In this document: piece after piece, positions 1 to 12,210 of the stretch
How the letters are laid out: each line of letters starts with the position of its first letter
Position numbering within the stretch: the first letter of the stretch is position 1
IMG/VR virus record: IMGVR_UViG_2879742664_000009
Length of the DNA: 40,938 nt
Reading direction: 5' to 3' (one strand)
Source of the DNA: a virus
Taxonomy: Duplodnaviria > Heunggongvirae > Uroviricota > Caudoviricetes
The notes under the pieces: model-generated
What the model was told of the DNA's origin: nothing
Database searches by the model: none
Seen by the model: the letters and a program-made list of their open reading frames with translations, nothing else
Position numbers and translations under genes: made by a program

Positions 1-789
1 TCATGCCTGCACCTCCTGCGTCAATTGCCAGAGCGCATCAAGGAAATGTGGAACAAAACTGCCTGGCCCCTCGCTTCTGGCGACTGCGCGTTCTCCGGCT
101 TGTTTCATCCAGTGACAGGCAGATGCGACATTTTCCAGCGTATCGCCTGGTAACGCACAGCAGGCAGCGACAACCGCCGATAATGCACAGCCAGTTCCTA
201 CCACTTTGGTCATTAACGGATCGCCACCGTGAATACCAATGATACGATGTCCATCGGTAACATAATCCATCTCGCCAGTGACCACGACGATTGCGCCAGT
301 TTCCCGTGCCAGTGTTTGTGCAGCGGGTATCGCGTTAGCTGCGGCGTCAGTGGTATCCACTCCCCGTCCACCATTAGCAATGCCAGCTAATGCCATGATT
401 TCCGAAGCATTACCACGTATAGCGGTTGGCTTATGAGGCAGAAGTTCCAGACAAAAACGGCGGCGATAATCGAGTGCACCAACCGCTACTGGATCAAGCG
501 TCCAGGGTGTTTGAGAGCTTTTTGCTTGCTCAACGGCGGCACACATCGACTGTGCGCGTAGCTGCGTCAGCGTGCCAACGTTAATCAGCAACGCACTAGC
601 AATAGCCGCAAACTGACTGGCCTCTTCGGTTTCGATAACCATCGCTGGCGATGCACCGAGCGCCAGCAAGGTATTGGCAGTAAAGGTTTGCACCACATCG
701 TTGGTCATGCAGTGCACAAGAGGGGAATGTTGGTGAAAAAGGTGTAACGCGTGCGCAGATTGCGCTGAACTCTGCAGGTCGACTTGCAT
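1..789 (-). CDS. thiM: hydroxyethylthiazole kinase ThiM (complete; stop at window edge)
   Basis: 262-aa ORF matching E. coli ThiM end to end by recall (MQVDL...QLTQEVQA). Stop TGA at 1-3 overlaps an ATG that would start thiD off-window. Confidence 0.93.
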
Positions 790-794
790 AGTTT

Positions 795-925
795 GCTCCT
801 GCCATAACGTGAAGAAGCAATGACCTGGTGGTCCGTGACTTCCCTACGCTGGCATTATCCAGATCAGGTAATACGGGTATTTCTCAGCCTTCACAAAGAA
901 GGGCACCCCGAGTCATTTAAAACAA
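795..925 (-). ncRNA. TPP (THI-box) riboswitch in thiM leader
   Basis: Reverse complement reads GACTCGGGGTGCCCTTCTTTGTGAAGGCTGAGAAATACCCGTATTACCTGATCTGGATAATGCCAGCGTAGGGAAGTCACGGACCACCAGGTCATTGCTTCTTCACGTTATGGCAGGAGCAAACTATG, the classic thiM aptamer plus expression platform ending at the start codon. Confidence 0.85.
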
Positions 926-1063
926 AATCAAAAGATTGCGATTAACGTCCCGTTAATCCCTGTTCTGGATCATGCCAGCGGAAAGCCAAAGACTCAACCC
1001 TAAAAAATCCTCTGTGTCCCAGTTTGTGTCTCACGTTGTGGCCCACAGATAAATGGCAGGCAC

Positions 1064-1086
1064 AAAAAAACCGCCCATAAGGCGGC
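1064..1086 (-). terminator. putative Rho-independent terminator (minus strand)
   Basis: Minus strand reads GCCGCC-TTATG-GGCGG followed by a T7 run. Confidence 0.45.
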
Positions 1087-2364
1087 TTAAGTAAATTATT
1101 CAGTCGTGAAGATTTAAATGAAATCTATTTTCTGCATACGCTTTCTTCATGCAGTCGAAGTGCTTTTGCCAATTCCAATTGGAATGCAAAGGAAAGACGG
1201 GAACGGCTGATCTTGATACCGTCAATAATGATGTATGTAGGGTAAACAGTGACCATGCGGCCCAAGTATTGGAAGTGTTTAGGGTGGTTTACTTTATCGT
1301 TATTCATTGTGTGCCATCCGTCTGGGTGGGGGTAATCCCGGCAACGGATGATTGATCTAAAATCGATCAAAATCAATAACTTAACAGATCACCAAATCCA
1401 GGGGGGTGTACATTGGCGAGCCTCCCTCAGCCTAACCTATACACGACCATAAAATAGGGGCGGATTCCTTCCAGTTGGGTGGGAAAATATCTGGGAGTTT
1501 GGATACAGTAGCCAGGCAGGGTAACCAGACCCATAGATGAGAATGTTTATTATTCCCAAATATCCAGGCGAGGGGCCTGCTGTGGCTCTCTTTACGCGCC
1601 GCTGTGGCGTCTTCTCTCCTCTTTCTATACAATCCCATAGCTAACCCATTGCGAGGCTTACAGAGCGTTACAGAGCGTCCGTGTGAATATTGCATAAATG
1701 AAAGTGGTGAAAGGTCCGATTTGGTCAACTTTTAGACAACTATTTAACATATGCGCAACAGGTTAGACCTGTACCCTTTCAATAGGTCCGCCTCCTGGGC
1801 GCTGTGTACGCCCCATAACTGTGGCTCTTCTGTACCCATCCGGGAGCCATTCCACAGAGTAAACTGTAAAACTGATCTGCCTGTGAGTAACGCCCTTTTC
1901 CTGTGGATAACTTCCACGCACTAACCCCATAAACTCCCCTTTTGAGGCGTCCGCCTCTTCAGGCCCTTTCTTGTGGCAAAAACACAAAAAGGGTTTAGGG
2001 CGGTGGCTACCGCCCCTGTAGATGGGAATGAGTCGCACTCGAAAGAGGGATTGAGAACCAATTCTCAAGTGATAATCGATCTCATTTGTGTTCGAAGTTT
2101 TCCCCAGAAAAATAATTTTGGGGTTAAGCATGTAAAATGCTACACACTTGCACTTTGTAATGATAATTAATTGACCATAAAAACAAATAGTTAGAAGCGC
2201 TGGGGGAGTCCCACTAGTTACACAATTGATTGCTTTTTGAGCTAAAACTGATTCTTTTACCGGGTATACAATCCATTTGATCGCCCTTTACCACATATTT
2301 AAACGGATTTAAAGCCATTTATTTAGGGGGTTAGCAAAGTGTTGATTCCATGGTTACAGATAAC

Positions 2365-2396
2365 AAAAAAGCCCGCCGGGGGTTAGCCGGGGGCCT
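2365..2396 (-). terminator. putative Rho-independent terminator downstream of tape-measure remnant
   Basis: GC-rich imperfect hairpin (GCCCCCGGC...CCGGCGGGC) followed by T6 on the minus strand. Confidence 0.35.
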
Positions 2397-2500
2397 GTGG
2401 TTGGGGGTGTCAAACGTGGTTAGTTCGGCCCGCCCTGCATTAGCATGTTGAAAGCCTGCTGATTATTGCTCTCAACTTCAGAGCGTACCAGATCCTTAAC

Positions 2501-4019
2501 CTATCCATCCTGCACTTTCACATTAACGTTCACGTTTAGCGGCTGGTTTAGCCACGCTGGCGGCGTCATCAGTGGATTACCTGCCATATCAACTTTAAGC
2601 TGTGGCGCTGTAATCGTCGGCGTAGGAGGTACATAAGTTGGATTGGAGTAAGAGCTTACCCACCCTGTTTTATCTGCTGGTTTGGCAAAGTCTGGATTAG
2701 TCGGAAGGTCTGGACTATGGAGGAAATCCCACAGTTTACCCAGCGGGCTATCTTTTTTCAGATTGCCCCCGGCGGTGGTGTCCTGTCCATACATGGCGTC
2801 GTTAGCGTCATGACCTTATCCCAGGCATAATCCCCACCTACCGAACCGACCGCAATGCTCCAGCCAACAGGACCGCCAGAGAGAGCCGCCGCGCCGCCTA
2901 CCTTGCCAACTTTCGGACCCCGACCCGGTTTGTTTGGCTTGTCTTTACCTTCCCCACCAGATCCGCCAGTAGTAGCGGCTTCAATGCCACCAATAGCGGC
3001 GATCCCTTTCATGACCCCCAGTAATTTGGTTAGTGGGTTAAGCATGGTCAACAACCATTTAAAGGCTACGCCCAACTTCCAGATAGACCCGGCGAACATA
3101 GCCACCCCGGCGGCGTATGCTGCCATTTCGCCCCAGGCTTTAAGCTGCTCACCAGTGATCCCCATCTTGCTGGCGTAATACTCAATAATGCGGAAGGTCA
3201 GGATCACAGTGTCATGCAACTCTGTAAACGCATCTGTGGCACCCTCAACGATTTTCCCGGCAATATGCCCGAACATCTCAAAGGCCCCACCAGAGCCGTT
3301 AACAGCGGCGCTGATAGCGTCGAAAGCGCTGGTTAATTCGTTGCCGAAGCCAGAAGCAAAGAAGATGTTCATCGCGTTCTGCATACTGGTTTGCAGGCGC
3401 TGCCAGCTTGCCCGGTTGGACTTCATAGCCTTATCCAGAGCGCCGCCGTTACGAGCTGCGGCTTTCATCTGTTTAGCCACTTCCGGGAGGATGTCCTTAG
3501 AGAACAGCTTCCCTTGTTGCATCAGGTCAAACAGATCCTTTTCTGTAAGGTTGGTTGTCCCTTTCATCTGGTTGAGAGCCTTAACGAACAGACCCACAGC
3601 CCCCGGGAGAGCTTCGGACAACTGGCCTTTGAGTTCTTCACTCATTACCGTTCCTTTAGACATCATCTGATTCAAACTTTTCAAAGCGCGGCTGGCTTCA
3701 TCGGCTGAAGCACCTGTAACAAGGCCCCATTCACTGGCACCCTCAAAGATGGATCGCATCTGGTCTTTAGGGAGCTTGTCACCAACAGCGGCGGCAAACT
3801 GAGTGTAATCACGGGAAGTCTTGAGGAGATCCAGCCCCAAACGGTTGGATTGATCACGGAGATAATCAAACTCTTTAGCGGCCTTATCTGTGGAACCGGT
3901 GATCGCTGTCAGACCAGAAAGCGCGGATTCAAAATCCTGTCCGGTGGTCATGATCTTGCCGCTCAGCGCCACAGTTGCGGCAATGGTGATCGCCCCGCCT
4001 GCACCCTCGATCATGGAGG
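2501..4019 (-). pseudogene. phage tail tape measure protein, C-terminal remnant (5' truncated by IS629, internal frameshift)
   Basis: ORFs 2758-4014 and 2501-2794 are two frames of one gene, with the frame change near 2812-2822. Tape-measure-type motif (KGTVMSEELKGQLSEALPGAVGLF) and Gly-rich C-terminus. The 5' end abuts the IS629 end at 4020. Confidence 0.7.
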
Positions 4020-4061
4020 TGAACCGCCCCGGGTTTCCTGGAGAGTGTTTTATCTGTGAAC

Positions 4062-4952
4062 TCAGGCTGCCAGATCATCGTTTCCGATGGAAGCATAATA
4101 AGCTTTTTCTGCTTCTGCCGGAGGGATGTGGCCCAGCCTTTCCAGCAATCGTCGATTATTATACCAGTCCACCCACGTGAGTGTGGCCAGTTCCACTTCT
4201 GCACGGTTTTTCCAGCTCTTACGGTGTATTACCTCCGCTTTGTAAAGACCATTGATGCTCTCCGCCATCGCGTTGTCATACGAGTCGCCTGTACTTCCTG
4301 TTGATGCCAGTAATCCGGCTTCCTTAAGCCGCTGTGTGTAGGCCAGCGATACATACTGAGAACCTTTATCACTGTGATGGACCGTGCCGGACGGTCGACG
4401 GGCCCATAACGCCTGCTCCAGTGCATCCAGCACGAATGTCGTCTCCATGGACGATGAGACCCGCCACCCCACAATGTATCCGGCAAACACATCAATGATG
4501 AACGCCACATAGACGAAGCCCTGCCATGTGCTGACGTAAGTAAAATCAGCTACCCACAGCTGGTCAGGTCGTTCTGCCACGAACTGACGGTTTACGCGGT
4601 CGCCTGCGGCAACGGCTTTCCGGCTGATGGTCGTACGGACCTTTTTACCCCGGAGAACACCGGCAAGTCCCATAACCGCCATGAGACGTGCCACAGTGCA
4701 TCTGGCCACTCTGATACCTTCCCGTAACAACTGACGCCAGACTTTACGCACACCGTATACCTGATGATTCCCATCGTATACGCGCAGTATCTCTTTCTTC
4801 AGCCAGTCATCGCGCTGCGCACGGGCACTGCGTTTATCCGGATGATGTCGCTGTTGCTGACAGTGGTAATACGTTGACGGGGCAATATGCAGTTCGCTGC
4901 ATAGCGGTCCGACCCCGTACTGCTCACGCAGCTTATCCAGCAGTGGCATCAT
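4062..4952 (-). CDS. IS629 transposase OrfB
   Basis: 296 aa, MMPLLDKL..., DDE transposase of IS3 family by recall. Confidence 0.9.
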
Positions 4953-5275
4953 TTTTTCCAGAGGCGGTCGAACTCCGCCTTCGCAAAATAAGCGGAAGCC
5001 TGGCGAAGGATATCGTTACTGCGGCGCAGTTCACGATTTTCACGCTCCAGCTCTTTCAGACGCTGACGTTCAGCGGTGGTGAGCCCGCCATCACCGCCCC
5101 CGGTATCCCGCTCATGCTGGCGAACCCAGACACGCAGAGTCTCCGGCGTACAGCCAATCTTTGGAGCAATGGAACAAATTGTCGCCCATTGTGAGTCATA
5201 TTCGCCCTGACTTTCCAGAACCATACGGACTGCCCGTTGACGGACTTCGGGGGAAAAACGAGTATTTTTAGTCAT
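4949..5275 (-). CDS. IS629 transposase OrfA
   Basis: 108 aa, [15 protein letters not shown]..., HTH OrfA of IS629. Confidence 0.9.
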
Positions 5276-5488
5276 CCTGTTTACCTCTTTCTCAGGAAGT
5301 TTAGTCTCCAGGATTCCCGGGGCGGTTCATTGCCTGTATGATCAATCGACTTTGTAGAGTTTCGGACGAAGGTCCGCAGAATATTCGCAGTATTAAATAA
5401 GTGTTCATTAATGCGGCAAAAACTAATACACCGCATCAATGTAACATCTCTGCGGTGTATGAAGAATAACCAGAATGGTTAATAGGCG

Positions 5489-6598
5489 TTAGACCGCGCG
5501 GAAGGAAATCTCGCCTGGAATGACTTCACCCTGCCAGTAGAGCTGAGCTGCAACGCGGTCAGCCAGCTGGCGGTAGATAGCGGTAAATTCGCTCTCCGGA
5601 CGGCTGATAACCGTTGGCGTGCCTTTATCGAGATCCTCACGTAAGGAGATGTGTAACGGCATCTGCCCCAGCAGCTGTGTGTGGTATTTTTCAGCCAGTT
5701 TCTCTGCACCACCGGTACCGAAAATCGGTTCATGGTGACCACAGTTACTGCAAATATGCACACTCATGTTCTCGACAATACCAAGCACCGGAACCTCGAC
5801 TTTCTCGAACATCACAATGCCTTTTTTCGCATCGATCAACGCGATGTCCTGCGGGGTGGTGACCACGACTGCACCAGTTACTGGAATGTTTTGCGCCAGC
5901 GTCAATTGAATGTCACCGGTGCCTGGCGGCATATCAAGCACCAGATAGTCGAGATCCGGCCACAAGGTTTCCTGCAACATCTGCATTAACGCCTTGCTCG
6001 CCATCGGTCCACGCCACACCATCGCATTGTCGTCAGTGACCAGATAACCAATTGAATTGGTTGCCAGGCAATGAGACATAATCGGTGCCATATGGGTACC
6101 GTCCGGCGAAGTTGGACGCTGATTTTCTGCGCCCAGCATGGTGGGAATTGATGGGCCGTAGATATCGGCGTCCAGAATGCCGACTTTCGCCCCTTCCGCC
6201 GCCAGTGCCAGCGCCAGGTTTACCGCCGTGGAGGATTTACCCACGCCGCCTTTACCGGAACTGACCGCAATGATGTTCTTCACACCATTAATACCCGGCT
6301 GATTCTTCACGCGTTTTAAGGTGGCGATATTGTGCGACAGTTTCCAGTCGATAGCTTTCGCCCCGGTGATACGCAGCAGTTCGGCGCTACATTGCTCTTT
6401 TAACTCTTCAAACGCGCTATGCCAGACGAATGGCATAACCAGTTCCACATGCAACGTGTCGTCCATCCAGGCGACATGGTGCAACGCTTTCAGCGTGGTG
6501 AGGTTATGCTTCAGGGTTGGGTGCTGAAAATTGGCCAGTGTCCCGGCGACCATTGCGCGCAAGGCTTCTGGTGATTTGGCCTGGGATTGTTCGTTCAT
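5489..6598 (-). CDS. apbC: iron-sulfur cluster carrier ATPase ApbC/Mrp
   Basis: Matches E. coli Mrp by recall from MNEQSQAKSPEALRAM; P-loop GKGGVGKS. The track ORF begins 10 codons upstream; start set at the MNEQ Met. Confidence 0.9.
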   Translation of the reverse strand: MNEQSQAKSPEALRAMVAGTLANFQHPTLKHNLTTLKALHHVAWMDDTLHVELVMPFVWHSAFEELKEQCSAELLRITGAKAIDWKLSHNIATLKRVKNQPGINGVKNIIAVSSGKGGVGKSSTAVNLALALAAEGAKVGILDADIYGPSIPTMLGAENQRPTSPDGTHMAPIMSHCLATNSIGYLVTDDNAMVWRGPMASKALMQMLQETLWPDLDYLVLDMPPGTGDIQLTLAQNIPVTGAVVVTTPQDIALIDAKKGIVMFEKVEVPVLGIVENMSVHICSNCGHHEPIFGTGGAEKLAEKYHTQLLGQMPLHISLREDLDKGTPTVISRPESEFTAIYRQLADRVAAQLYWQGEVIPGEISFRAV

Positions 6599-6729
6599 CC
6601 CGACTCCTTTTTTGTATAGATAAACCATCAGCTGATAGTTTACCTGAAGAATATAGAGAAGTACTTACTTAACATTTTCCCATTTGGTACTATCTAACCC
6701 CTTTTCACTATTAAGAAGTAATGCCTACT

Positions 6730-9158: not shown

Positions 9159-9977
9159 TTAAGCAGCCATCTGATGATATTTTTCCCTGAAGGCTGCCGG
9201 GGAGATATTCCCCAGACGAGAGTGACGACGCTGACGATTGTAGAAAATCTCAATGTATTCCCGTATTACTGAGATGGCTTCATCCCGGTTATTAAAACGA
9301 TAGTGGCTCAGGCTCTCATTTTTCAGCGTTCCCCAGAAGCTTTCCATCGGAGCGTTGTCGTAACAGTGACCTTTACGCGACATTGATGTTTTCAGACCAG
9401 ACTGCTCCTGTATGACCCGGTAATCGTATGCGCAGTACTGTGAACCTCGATCAGAGTGGTGGATTAGCCCGGCAGGTGGGCGCTGGCTCCTGAGCGCCAT
9501 AAACAGGGCTTTACCTGTCAGCTCTTTTGTCATGCGCTCTCCCATGGCGTAGCCGACAATTTCGCACGTATAAACATCTTTGATGCCAGCGAGGTACAAC
9601 CATCCCTCCTGTGTGGCAACATACGTCAGGTCCGCCACCCAGACCTGATTTGGTGCTGTAGGAGCGAACGTCTGGTTCAGCAGATTTGGCGCAACTGGCA
9701 GATTGTGGTTCGGGTTCGTAGTCGCTCTGAACTTGCGTTTCTGCTTACAGCGTAGCCTTAGCTCCTTACGAAGACGTGCCAGTCGGTCACGACCAACGAT
9801 GATGCCATTCTCTGCCAGCTCCGTCTGGAGCCGCCGGGTTCCATATGTTTCGCGAGTGCGGATATGTGCCACCTTAATCTCCAGTTTTAGCCGCTCATCA
9901 CTTTGTTTTCTGTCTGAGGGTTCATGCTGTACCCAGTTGTAATAACCGCTCCTGGATACACCAAATACCTGACACAT
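9159..9977 (-). CDS. IS600 transposase OrfB
   Basis: 272 aa, MCQVFGVSRSGYYNWVQHEPSDRKQ... Confidence 0.9.
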   Translation of the reverse strand: MCQVFGVSRSGYYNWVQHEPSDRKQSDERLKLEIKVAHIRTRETYGTRRLQTELAENGIIVGRDRLARLRKELRLRCKQKRKFRATTNPNHNLPVAPNLLNQTFAPTAPNQVWVADLTYVATQEGWLYLAGIKDVYTCEIVGYAMGERMTKELTGKALFMALRSQRPPAGLIHHSDRGSQYCAYDYRVIQEQSGLKTSMSRKGHCYDNAPMESFWGTLKNESLSHYRFNNRDEAISVIREYIEIFYNRQRRHSRLGNISPAAFREKYHQMAA

Positions 9978-10012
9978 CGCTTCAATGGGAAATTGTTGTC
10001 GCCATTGTTCGA

Positions 10013-10315
10013 TTAACGCGTATTTTTCAGCGACTCCTGTGCAAAATACGCTGTTGCTTTTTTTAATATATCTCGCTCAAGGCGAGCTTCATTTAACGCC
10101 TTACGCAGTTGCAGAATTTCAGATTCCAGTTCAGCCACCGTGCGGGAACCAGGAGTACCGAGCCCTTTTCTGGCGGCGGTAACCCATTGTCCTAAAGTGC
10201 CTTCAGGAAGGGATAATCGGGAAGCGCCTTCACTGATCGAAAGTTGATTTTCAAGAACCGTTCTGACAGCTTCGGCTTTGAACTCTTTAGAGTAACGTTG
10301 GTTTTTTCTGCTCAT
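10013..10315 (-). CDS. IS600 transposase OrfA
   Basis: 100 aa, MSRKNQRYSKEFKAEAVRTV... Confidence 0.9.
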   Translation of the reverse strand: MSRKNQRYSKEFKAEAVRTVLENQLSISEGASRLSLPEGTLGQWVTAARKGLGTPGSRTVAELESEILQLRKALNEARLERDILKKATAYFAQESLKNTR

Positions 10316-10379
10316 TATTAGCTCCTTCTGATGCCATTCTATTTCAGGAAGGAGTGTCCGTTAAACTCAGGCTACCTCA

Positions 10380-10961
10380 ATGTGTTGCGTCATATCAATC
10401 ATCCGTTCGCATTGACACTGCTTATACGTGTAGCCGGGCAAACTAAACGCTGTCACGATCGGATGACGAAAGCCATTGCTGCGTTCCCACATGCAGCAAT
10501 GGCGGCACTGACGGAACTTCTTGGGCAAAAAGAAGAGAACAGTTGGCGCATTATGCTAATGACAATGCTTATCTCACAACCAGCACTGGCAGAACAGGTC
10601 CTTCCCTGGCTCTCGACACCCGCAGTTGCCGTACTGAAATCATACCAGCAACAACTGACACAGCCCTCAAACCATGCCTGCGCCGATCTACTGCCTGCCG
10701 TATTAGTCTCACCGCCCTGGCTTTCGAAAAAGAAAAAATCTGTAATGCCGGTATTGGATTTAACGCCATTACCGTTGGAGTCATGCTGTACATTGACTGA
10801 GACGGCAGAAAAAGAGATTCATACAAGGCATCGCTGGCACGCACATCAAATAGACATCGGCCAAAAAGAGGATATTCAGAACTACCTGGCACGTCTGGGT
10901 TTCAATCGCTGGAATAATGGCCAGTATATGAAAGCGTCTGATGCTGTTGTAGAACTCTGGC
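10380..10961 (+). pseudogene. molR: molR fragment 2
   Basis: Open frame continues after IS600 (NVLRHINHPFALTLL...), then shifts frame and ends at IS911. Confidence 0.55.
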
Positions 10962-10969
10962 TGAAGTGG

Positions 10970-12138
<1,169 letters not shown>

Positions 12139-12210
12139 TGGAGCACCTGTGTTGTTCTGAGGTGAGCATATCACCTCTGTTCAGGTGGCCAAATTCAGTG
12201 TGCCACTTCA

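What the first reader, a model, noticed from the sequence alone, without database searches (positions are those of the whole stretch)
2501..4019. Second, unrelated tape-measure remnant next to thiM
A GC-rich tape-measure C-terminal fragment, frameshifted near 2812-2822 and cut by IS629 at 4020, has no other tail genes around it. With the Mu-like tape measure (22963-24798) and the low-GC one (34558-35863), the window holds three distinct tape-measure-type genes, implying at least three phage-derived acquisitions.
Basis: partly seen in the sequence, partly recalled or inferred. Interest (0 to 1): 0.35.

Follow-up and report, generated by a model that had tools for sequence, protein, structure and literature searches.

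The report
Tape-measure relic of satellite-like island
The sequence next to thiM is a dead, IS-truncated tape-measure gene in Shigella flexneri. It is what remains of a compact 13-kb mobile island that inserts into the thiM riboswitch, not of a whole prophage, and intact copies of that island look like an undescribed satellite of rV5/phiTE-type phages.

Summary
Window 2418-4019 (minus strand) is a tape-measure (Pfam TMP_3) pseudogene. An IS629/IS1203 copy (4020-5329) removed its first ~178 codons. One base is missing at ~2810, and a CAG>TAG stop lies at 2501-2503.

It has no nucleotide or protein similarity to the Mu-like tape measure at 22963-24798. It is a remote homolog (28% identity) of the low-GC one at 34558-35889.

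The parent is not a decayed prophage. Intact copies (94.6% nucleotide identity in E. coli H2; also Klebsiella aerogenes, Cronobacter, Enterobacter, Pectobacterium, Pantoea) lie in a conserved ~10-kb core within 13-14-kb islands that never carry other tail genes. The island has an integrase, a capsid and decoration-like gene pair, DNA-binding proteins, a small protein copying the N-terminus of phage phiTE gp211, the 703-718-aa tape measure, and variable cargo. It sits between direct repeats of the thiM TPP riboswitch.

The closest phage tape measures belong to virulent Vequintavirinae. A phage-satellite lifestyle is inferred, not shown.

The Shigella copy is an inert scar. The deletion next to the IS also removed rcnRAB and yehABCDE.

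The parts
824..920 (-). thiM TPP riboswitch. This is the attL-side copy of the island's attachment repeat.
   Evidence: Rfam RF00059 at 75.3 bits. In E. coli H2 the same 50-75 nt are repeated 13,261 bp away at the other end of the island. The second copy is deleted in the window.
921..1517 (-). Left end of the island, retained. It includes an intact 60-codon ORF (p60, about 1128-1307, minus strand) followed by a terminator-like hairpin at 1088-1068.
   Evidence: Window 790-1517 is 97% identical to island-bearing E. coli and to Logan contig L013. p60 is 100% identical in tblastn. Terminator-like site.
1518..2417 (-). ORF-free variant module downstream of the tape-measure gene. It replaces the 188-aa tyrosine recombinase found in H2-type islands. 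The conserved core is about 1737-2214, with a perfect DnaA box at 1902-1910.
   Evidence: No megablast match in 5,426 E. coli genomes. It is 73-74% identical and collinear with DNA in the same position in two other island variants, L016 and L024. Conserved hairpins. It holds the only TTATCCACA in the window. No Rfam match.
2418..4019 (-). Tape-measure pseudogene, corresponding to codons ~179-711 of a 711-codon gene. Lesions: 5' truncation at 4019/4020, a 1-nt deletion at ~2810, and a CAG>TAG change at 2501-2503.
   Evidence: Pfam TMP_3. Alignment to the H2 gene. tblastn 95% identity to the K. aerogenes-type protein. Public name 'tape measure protein, partial [Shigella flexneri]'.
4020..5329 (-). 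IS629/IS1203-type IS3-family element, 1310 bp. The flanking bases are ..GAGG on the left and TTGC.. on the right, so there is no target-site duplication.
   Evidence: Pfam HTH_Tnp_1 and rve. ALIL pseudoknot. Ends read directly from the sequence. Four more copies at ~98% identity in the window.
5330..5488 (.). Deletion junction. The sequence resumes in the yehE-apbC intergenic region.
   Evidence: Window 5328-6700 matches L001 38742-40114 at 99.6%. About 17 kb present in E. coli H2 is therefore absent: the 5' quarter of the tape-measure gene, the rest of the island, rcnR, rcnA, rcnB and yehA-E.

Best explanation
Window 2418-4019 is a non-functional relic of a tape-measure gene. The gene belonged to a ~13-kb integrative island that inserts into the TPP riboswitch upstream of thiMD.

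In the Shigella flexneri lineage an IS629/IS1203 copy entered the gene. A deletion or IS-IS recombination next to it removed about 17 kb: the first ~178 codons, the rest of the island, and the chromosomal rcnRAB and yehABCDE genes. A 1-nt deletion and a nonsense mutation followed. What remains is the riboswitch-side end of the island, an ORF-free module and three quarters of the gene. These steps are shown by the sequence comparisons.

The next part is inferred. Intact islands of this family are probably phage satellites that exploit virulent rV5/phiTE-like (Vequintavirinae) myophages. They would integrate and excise with their own integrase and build or remodel a small head with their own lambda-E-type capsid protein and D-like protein. 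They carry a 124-aa protein that copies the N-terminus of the helper's gp211, which sits in the scaffold/protease position of the helper's head module. Their ~711-aa tape measure has N- and C-terminal ends matching the helper's, so it could enter helper-made tails. All other virion parts would come from the helper.

In the window nothing of this machinery is left, so the fragment does nothing.
For: Remnant and lesions.

IS element and deletion:
- IS ends lack a target-site duplication, and the junction maps to the yehE-apbC spacer.

The same locus holds an intact island elsewhere:
- E. coli H2 has thiM, a riboswitch repeat, 13,261 bp, a second riboswitch repeat, then rcnR.
- K. aerogenes and Cronobacter have the island next to thiM as well.

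Gene order is conserved in about a dozen loci from at least seven genera, with swapped integrases and variable cargo. The cargo includes an OLD-family nuclease at E 8e-46.

The tape-measure gene is under purifying selection, with dN/dS of 0.11-0.27. Its length stays at 703-718 aa. A variant shares only the two termini and the exact length of 711 aa.

Links to the candidate helper phages:
- The closest phage tape measures are from Certrevirus phages phiTE, CR3, CR8, CR9 and KaOmega, at 36-40% identity.
- The best solved structure is the phiTE tape measure, 9cuy_W, at E 3.7e-84, with conserved termini.
- p124 residues 63-95 are 79% identical to phiTE gp211 residues 7-39.
- That segment matches the same protein in 226 phage records, dominated by rV5-like and related enterobacterial phages.
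- The island capsid protein matches Phage_cap_E, and a weak HDPD-like protein lies upstream, in the same order as phiTE gp212-gp213.

No portal, terminase, tube, sheath, baseplate or lysis gene was detected.

The exact 418-aa ORF occurs on 284 contigs named Shigella flexneri or Shigella.
Against: - No experiment or virion-derived sequence shows that the island is induced, packaged or transferred.
- An attP-type junction was absent from IMG/VR. The single metagenome contig that has it is low coverage and could equally be a tandem-island junction.
- The 13-14-kb stand-alone contigs are assembly breaks at the att repeat, not episomes.
- The replication function rests on weak HTH and replication-initiator matches at E ~1e-5.
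- The capsid protein is only ~21% identical to phiTE's.
- Several small ORFs have no annotation and could hide functions.
- The island tape measure is 100 aa shorter than phiTE's, and why a satellite would need its own is unexplained.
- The order of events (IS insertion followed by deletion, versus recombination between two IS copies) cannot be resolved from one genome.
Confidence: 0.8

Rival explanations
1. The fragment is the last surviving piece of a complete prophage that once sat next to thiM, and its other tail genes were lost by decay.
For: The gene is a true tape-measure homolog. Shigella genomes are full of IS-eroded prophages, and this window has five IS629-type copies. About 17 kb was indeed deleted beside it.
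Against: Wherever the gene is intact, it lies in a 13-14-kb element bounded by att repeats or by host genes, with the same ~10 core genes and no other tail, portal, terminase or lysis gene. This holds in E. coli, K. aerogenes, Cronobacter, Pectobacterium, Pantoea and metagenomes. The missing 17 kb is accounted for by the rest of that island plus rcnRAB-yehABCDE. No phage record has nucleotide similarity beyond 92 bp.
Confidence: 0.05
2. The fragment is a displaced or duplicated part of one of the other two tape-measure genes in the window, moved by IS-mediated rearrangement.
For: IS629 copies flank or abut all three regions. The fragment and the low-GC gene both belong to Pfam TMP_3.
Against: There is no nucleotide similarity between any pair (best E 0.075). 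Protein similarity to the Mu-like gene is nil (E 0.09). Similarity to the low-GC gene is only 28% identity. Each has its own intact parent elsewhere, at 94.6% (H2 island) and ~95% (yecE island) identity.
Confidence: 0.01
3. The parent island is mobile but is not a satellite. It could be a defence or 'interference' island whose tape-measure-like, capsid-like and gp211-mimic proteins act as decoys that poison assembly of incoming rV5/phiTE-like phages. Or it could be an integrative element that simply carries fossil phage genes.
For: The island carries known defence cargo (an OLD nuclease). A tape measure with matching termini but a different length (711 against 811 aa), and a 33-aa copy of the gp211 N-terminus, would both be plausible dominant-negative inhibitors. 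There is no evidence of packaging.
Against: A full-length capsid protein with its decoration-like partner is conserved in every intact copy, and the tape-measure length is tightly conserved under purifying selection. These fit building particles better than blocking them. The island is 95-97% identical across genera, which needs an efficient transfer vehicle, and no conjugation genes were seen. Interference and satellite transfer are not mutually exclusive: known satellites do both (established for P4, SaPIs and PLE, from my own knowledge).
Confidence: 0.15
4. The truncated 418-aa ORF is still expressed, by read-through from the co-oriented IS629 transposase genes, and has a residual function such as a membrane-active or anti-phage role.
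For: The IS genes and the fragment are on the same strand, with the ORF's ATG 6 nt from the IS end. The exact ORF is conserved on 284 contigs.
Against: The sequence before the ATG is CCTCC, which is not a Shine-Dalgarno sequence. The ORF runs into a frameshift, and other Shigella strains carry further-shortened versions of 269-381 aa. This is the pattern of neutral decay. Conservation across strains is explained by clonal descent.
Confidence: 0.03

Closest known systems
Tape measure protein of Pectobacterium phage phiTE (gp228; PDB 9cuy chain W) and its Certrevirus/Vequintavirinae homologs (CR3, CR8, CR9, KaOmega)
   Same: It is the best phage and best solved-structure match to the intact relatives (E 3.7e-84; 36-40% identity). 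The central TMP_3 domain is shared. The N-terminal ~45 residues and the extreme C-terminus (..FNML.QGGPN) are conserved. In phiTE these termini lie at the neck and the baseplate hub (PMC11972413).
   Different: The island protein is 711 aa, not 811. It is encoded in a 13-kb island without chaperone, tube, sheath or baseplate genes. The window copy lacks the N-terminal 178 residues and is frameshifted.
Capsid-forming PICIs (cf-PICIs)
   Same: Both are compact integrative islands that spread across genera and encode their own major capsid protein while taking tails from a helper (concept from PMC10085698 and the commentary PMC12772148).
   Different: No portal, protease, terminase small subunit or head-tail connector was detected here. 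This family does carry a tape measure, which cf-PICIs do not. The putative helpers are virulent 140-150-kb myophages, not temperate ~40-kb phages.
PLE of Vibrio cholerae (satellite of the virulent myophage ICP1) and P4-like satellites
   Same: PLE is a small island parasitising a large virulent myophage, P4 carries a capsid-decoration protein (Psu), and P4-like satellites have a hotspot for defence cargo. This is from my own knowledge and from PMC12772148.
   Different: No homologs of the P4 psu, sid, delta or alpha genes or of PLE genes were found by PHROGs or Pfam. Those satellites use the helper's coat protein and encode no tape measure.
thiM-rcnR island of E. coli H2 (NZ_CP028733, 1783300-1796560) and its eroded copy in E. 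coli 13TMH22
   Same: It has the same insertion site, 94.6% nucleotide identity over the fragment, and the same left end. In 13TMH22 the gene is likewise cut by IS1203.
   Different: H2 keeps the complete tape-measure gene and the rest of the island. The window carries a different, ORF-free module where H2 has a 188-aa recombinase.

Membership tests
Tape measure protein, Pfam TMP_3 (PF20155) | Profile match above the curated threshold | tested here: met
   91.6 bits against a cut-off of 41 for the 418-aa ORF. PHROG 5255 'tail length tape measure protein' at E 1e-110 for the intact H2 homolog.
Tape measure protein, Pfam TMP_3 (PF20155) | Complete, uninterrupted reading frame with both termini | tested here: not met
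   Codons 1-178 are missing, there is a 1-nt deletion at ~2810, and a TAG stop lies at 2501-2503. It is a pseudogene.
Tape measure protein, Pfam TMP_3 (PF20155) | Encoded within a tail-gene cluster (chaperones upstream, tube or sheath and baseplate around it) | tested here: not met
   No such genes occur in the window or in about a dozen intact or near-intact relatives.
IS629/IS1203 (IS3 family) | About 1.3 kb with terminal inverted repeats, orfA and orfB, and a programmed -1 frameshift signal | tested here: met
   The element is 1310 bp with TGAACCGCCCCGGG.. ends. HTH_Tnp_1 and rve domains. ALIL pseudoknot at 120 bits. RefSeq names the equivalent copies 'IS3-like element IS1203 family'.
IS629/IS1203 (IS3 family) | Short target-site duplication flanking a simple insertion | tested here: not met
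   The flanks are GAGG and TTGC. This fits an adjacent deletion or IS-IS recombination, not a simple insertion.
Phage satellite (generic) | Compact integrative element with an integrase and att repeats | tested here: met
   This applies to intact relatives only. There are 13,261 bp between riboswitch repeats, a 451-aa tyrosine integrase, and alternative integrases at other sites.
Phage satellite (generic) | Incomplete virion gene set, with some genes related to those of a candidate helper | tested here: met
   Only the capsid protein, a D-like protein, the gp211 N-terminal mimic and the tape measure are present. The relatives are Vequintavirinae.
Phage satellite (generic) | Helper-dependent induction, packaging and transfer | not testable with these tools
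   Only indirect evidence exists. There was no attP junction in IMG/VR and one ambiguous metagenome junction.
Capsid-forming PICI | Own portal, prohead protease, terminase small subunit and head-tail connectors in addition to the capsid protein | tested here: not met
   No such Pfam or PHROG hits were found for any core ORF. Several small ORFs remain unannotated.
P4-like satellite | Core genes psu, sid, delta and alpha (primase) | tested here: not met
   No matches in PHROGs or Pfam.
Copy of the window's Mu-like tape measure (22963-24798) | High nucleotide or protein identity | tested here: not met
   BLASTP E 0.09. blastn best E 1.3. The Pfam families differ, PF10145 against PF20155.

The most novel reading that the evidence does not exclude
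The relic points to an undescribed family of phage satellites in Enterobacterales.

- They are 13-14-kb islands that integrate into the thiM TPP riboswitch, or elsewhere with swapped integrases.
- They encode their own capsid protein, a decoration-like protein, a mimic of the N-terminus of the helper's gp211 (scaffold/protease position), and, uniquely among described satellites, their own tape measure.
- They would parasitise virulent rV5/phiTE-type (Vequintavirinae) myophages.
- After integration, the integrase gene sits directly behind a chimeric TPP-riboswitch copy, so thiamine status might influence excision.
- The window's third tape measure comes from a second kind of small tape-measure-bearing island, which suggests that tape-measure-encoding hitchers may be a wider class.
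Probability: 0.4. Interest if true: 0.7.

Novelty: new variant of a known kind. Interest (0 to 1): 0.42.

Why it matters
The fragment in the window is an ordinary pseudogene and is already labelled 'tape measure protein, partial' in public Shigella records. On its own it matters only in two ways. It marks an IS629-linked deletion that removed the nickel/cobalt efflux genes rcnRAB and the yeh fimbrial operon. It also adds to the count of independent mobile-element acquisitions in this region.

The useful result is what it points to. A lone tape-measure gene need not be the last piece of a decayed prophage. Here it comes from a conserved, cross-genus, 13-kb island whose gene set fits none of the described satellite families and whose phage-like genes point to virulent Vequintavirinae.

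If these islands are satellites, they would be a tractable enterobacterial counterpart of the ICP1-PLE system. They would also be the first satellites known to bring their own tape measure. This bears on how tails are matched to heads and on the use of rV5/phiTE-like phages in therapy and biocontrol.

Tried and rejected
- Nucleotide search of 50,697 phage records found only a 92-bp, 76% identity match, so there is no parent phage.
- Rfam and tRNA scans of window 1-6000 and of intact islands found only the TPP riboswitch and the IS pseudoknot. No tRNA attachment site was found.
- I first read the many 13-14-kb stand-alone contigs carrying the gene as possible episomes or packaged genomes. Their ends lie in the riboswitch repeat or thiM and have no terminal overlap, so they are assembly breaks.
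- An attP-junction pattern found nothing in IMG/VR. It found one 2.9-kb, ~2x-coverage metagenome contig whose far side matches nothing else. This is ambiguous between an excised circle and tandem islands, and I do not use it as evidence.
- Other island genes were compared with 26 kb of phiTE. Only the tape measure, the gp211 N-terminus and, weakly, the capsid protein match.
- phiTE gp211 is not among solved structures, so its role as scaffold or protease rests on gene position and one record's annotation.
- Literature searches for satellites of Vequintavirinae or Certrevirus, for satellite-encoded tape measures and for thiM-site satellites found no description. The library is incomplete, so this is absence of evidence only.
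- A simple promoter scan did not locate the thiM promoter in the island-derived DNA.
- PADLOC recognised only the OLD nuclease among the cargo genes.

Full report
**What is in the window.** The left end of the window reads as follows:
- thiM (1-789, minus strand)
- its TPP riboswitch (824-920, Rfam 75 bits)
- about 1.5 kb without convincing genes
- two overlapping minus-strand ORFs (2501-2794 and 2758-4014)
- an IS3-family element (4020-5329)
- apbC/mrp (5489-6628) and metG

The 418-aa ORF matches Pfam TMP_3 well above threshold. Exact-sequence look-ups place it on 284 contigs named Shigella flexneri or Shigella, including 4.6-4.7-Mb chromosomes. There it is already called 'tape measure protein, partial'. 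The window is therefore S. flexneri. Its five ~98%-identical IS629/IS1203 copies fit that.

**Checking the observation.** Only 23 of 5,426 complete E. coli genomes have any match to the fragment, and six have most of it. The best is E. coli H2, with an intact 711-codon gene at 94.6% identity. Alignment shows three things:
- The window copy starts at codon ~179, exactly at the IS end (4019/4020).
- It lacks one base at ~2810.
- It carries CAG>TAG at 2501-2503, and homology continues to the ancestral stop at ~2418-2420.

The remnant is longer than stated (2418-4019, about 75% of the gene) and has an extra nonsense mutation. 'GC-rich' is not distinctive: 53.1% against 51.3% for the window and 54.1% for thiM.

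**The IS and the deletion.** The IS has proper inverted repeats but no target-site duplication. Immediately to its right the sequence resumes in the yehE-apbC spacer. Relative to H2, about 17 kb is missing: the 5' quarter of the gene, the rest of the island, and rcnR, rcnA, rcnB and yehA-E.

**The three tape measures.**
- The fragment shows no protein similarity (E 0.09) and no nucleotide similarity to the Mu-like gene 22963-24798. That gene belongs to PF10145 and is flanked by sheath and DNA-circularisation genes.
- Against the low-GC gene 34558-35889 the fragment shows 28% identity over 237 aa (E 5e-23). They are remote homologs in the same Pfam family, with no nucleotide similarity.
- The low-GC gene is itself truncated at the N-terminus next to an IS629 copy. 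Its intact 682-aa parent lies with a Dit-like gene in an ~11-kb serine-recombinase island inserted in yecE of E. coli S171-1.

Three independent acquisitions are supported.

**What the parent is.** In H2 the gene sits in an island between thiM and rcnR. The island is bounded by a direct repeat of 50-75 nt of the TPP riboswitch, 13,261 bp apart, with a second riboswitch-like hit of 53 bits at the far end. Its content is:
- a 60-aa ORF
- a 188-aa tyrosine recombinase
- the tape-measure gene
- a 124-aa ORF, a 190-aa DNA-binding-like protein and a ~220-aa HTH protein weakly resembling replication initiators
- three small ORFs
- a conserved, ORF-free gap of ~1.9 kb
- a 123-aa protein weakly like lambda D, followed by a 339-aa lambda-E-type capsid protein
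- cargo, which in H2 is an OLD-family nuclease
- a 451-aa integrase

The same core in the same order occurs in Pectobacterium odoriferum, Kosakonia, Enterobacter, K. aerogenes, Cronobacter sakazakii, Pantoea ananatis and several metagenome and IMG/VR contigs. In K. aerogenes and Cronobacter it is again next to thiM. In Pantoea and Pectobacterium other integrases place it elsewhere.

None of these loci has tube, sheath, baseplate, portal, terminase or lysis genes. The tape-measure gene is under purifying selection (dN/dS 0.11-0.27). Its length is held at 703-718 aa in 120 listed homologs spread over many genera at up to 97% identity. This is a compact, functional, mobile element, not a decayed prophage.

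**Link to a phage group.**
- No phage has meaningful nucleotide similarity.
- The closest phage tape measures are those of virulent 140-155-kb Certrevirus/Vequintavirinae myophages of Pectobacterium, Cronobacter, Enterobacter and K. aerogenes, at 36-40% identity. These are the same host genera that carry the island.
- The best solved structure is the phiTE tape measure, 9cuy_W (E 3.7e-84), with the N-terminal ~45 residues and the extreme C-terminus conserved. A paper on phiTE places those ends at the neck and the baseplate hub (PMC11972413).
- A second island lineage in E. coli EC24 has a 711-aa protein that shares only these two termini with the H2 protein.
- The 124-aa ORF upstream of the tape-measure gene carries the precomputed Pfam label Phage_phiTE_211. 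Its residues 63-95 are 79% identical to residues 7-39 of phiTE gp211. That segment matches the same protein in 226 phage records, 112 of them Escherichia phages of 137-145 kb.
- gp211 lies between the portal gene and the decoration and capsid genes. It is absent from solved virion structures. One record calls it a 'prohead core protein protease'. Its role as scaffold or protease is my inference.
- The island's D-like and capsid genes stand in the same order as phiTE gp212-gp213, and the capsid proteins are ~21% identical over their full length.

**Most likely mechanism.** I infer that intact islands are phage satellites of rV5/phiTE-like phages. They would bring their own integrase, regulators, capsid shell proteins, a scaffold-mimicking peptide and a tape measure compatible with the helper's tail, and would take everything else from the helper. 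This is inference from gene content, conservation and homology. No step of induction, packaging or transfer is shown.

A decoy or interference island is the main rival, and the two are not exclusive. I found no description of such elements in the searchable literature.

**The Shigella copy.** It retains only three pieces:
- the riboswitch-side end, 790-1517 (97% identical to other islands, with an intact 60-aa ORF)
- an ORF-free 900-bp module, 1518-2417
- the damaged gene

No other island part exists elsewhere in the window. The module replaces the 188-aa recombinase of H2-type islands. It is conserved at 73-74% identity in the same position in two other island variants. It contains conserved hairpins and the window's only perfect DnaA box, at 1902-1910. 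Its function is unknown.

Independent erosion of the same island by IS1203 and IS4 is seen in E. coli 13TMH22. Shorter versions of the ORF occur in other Shigella strains. Both are consistent with neutral decay.

**Verdict.** The window feature is an ordinary, already-annotated pseudogene. The interest lies in the island family it reveals.

Noticed in passing
window 33630-35889; L023 12454-23609: The low-GC tape measure (34558-35889, N-terminus cut by IS629 at 36104) and its Dit-like neighbour (33630-34421) also derive from a small island. In E. coli S171-1 an ~11-kb element with a serine recombinase, an intact 682-aa tape measure, a Dit-like protein and an adenine methyltransferase splits yecE. 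This is a second kind of small island carrying a tape measure.
   Followed up: partly
window 1737-2214 (DnaA box at 1902-1910, minus strand): An ORF-free segment downstream of the tape-measure gene is conserved at 73-74% identity in two other island variants (L016 7001-7297 and L024 12191-12677). It has several conserved hairpins and the only perfect TTATCCACA in the 41-kb window. It could be an origin, a packaging site or an RNA. There is no Rfam match, and three sequences are too few to test covariation.
   Followed up: partly
L001 31179-31275; L021 7-103; L022 2-98; L028 10612-10708: Integration into the thiM TPP riboswitch leaves a second, chimeric riboswitch copy (52-53 bits, just under the 54.3 threshold). 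It lies directly upstream of the island integrase and in the same orientation, in both E. coli and Cronobacter. Conversely, thiMD is then preceded by island-derived upstream DNA. Thiamine-dependent control of the integrase is conceivable but untested.
   Followed up: partly
L013 5324-7289 (equivalent to L001 24861-26881): Every intact island has a gap of ~1.9 kb with no conserved ORF between the capsid operon and the divergently transcribed regulatory and tape-measure operon. Its first ~950 columns are 80-97% conserved across genera. It contains a 25-nt direct repeat with a palindromic core (AGGCAAAATCTGCCT) at L013 6691 and 6724. No Rfam or tRNA hit was found.
   Followed up: partly
window 4020-5329, 12949-14259, 29879-31188, 36104-37420, 39207-40516: The window holds five copies of the same 1310-bp IS629/IS1203 element at ~98% mutual identity, plus other IS3-family copies (for example 9159-10315 and 10970-11809). 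At least two of the three tape-measure genes are cut by this IS.
   Followed up: partly
window 5329/5330 junction: This S. flexneri lineage lacks rcnR, rcnA and rcnB (nickel/cobalt efflux) and the yehABCDE fimbrial operon, because of the ~17-kb deletion beside the IS.
   Followed up: yes
L016 8399-10534: A sister island lineage at ygeQ in E. coli EC24 encodes a protein of exactly 711 aa. It shares only the first ~55 and last ~65 residues with the thiM-island tape measure (42-43% identity) and has an unrelated middle. The termini and the length appear to be what is conserved.
   Followed up: partly
L029 (ERZ772877 NODE_6105) 1-891: A low-coverage metagenome contig joins the integrase end of the island to its opposite end through the att repeat. 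That is the junction expected for an excised circle or for tandem islands. The remaining 2 kb (an EAL-like ORF and others) matches none of the loci fetched.
   Followed up: partly
L006 (CP099865.1) 9333-13257: In one S. flexneri chromosome the DNA on the thiM side of the remnant is replaced by an integrase, a DUF6387 gene, an AlpA gene and others. This points to a further rearrangement or another island at this spot.
   Followed up: no
window 15080-16228: A low-GC (29-35%) acyltransferase-3 family gene lies just before the Mu-like tail genes. It is possibly an O-antigen-modifying acetylase carried by a prophage.
   Followed up: no
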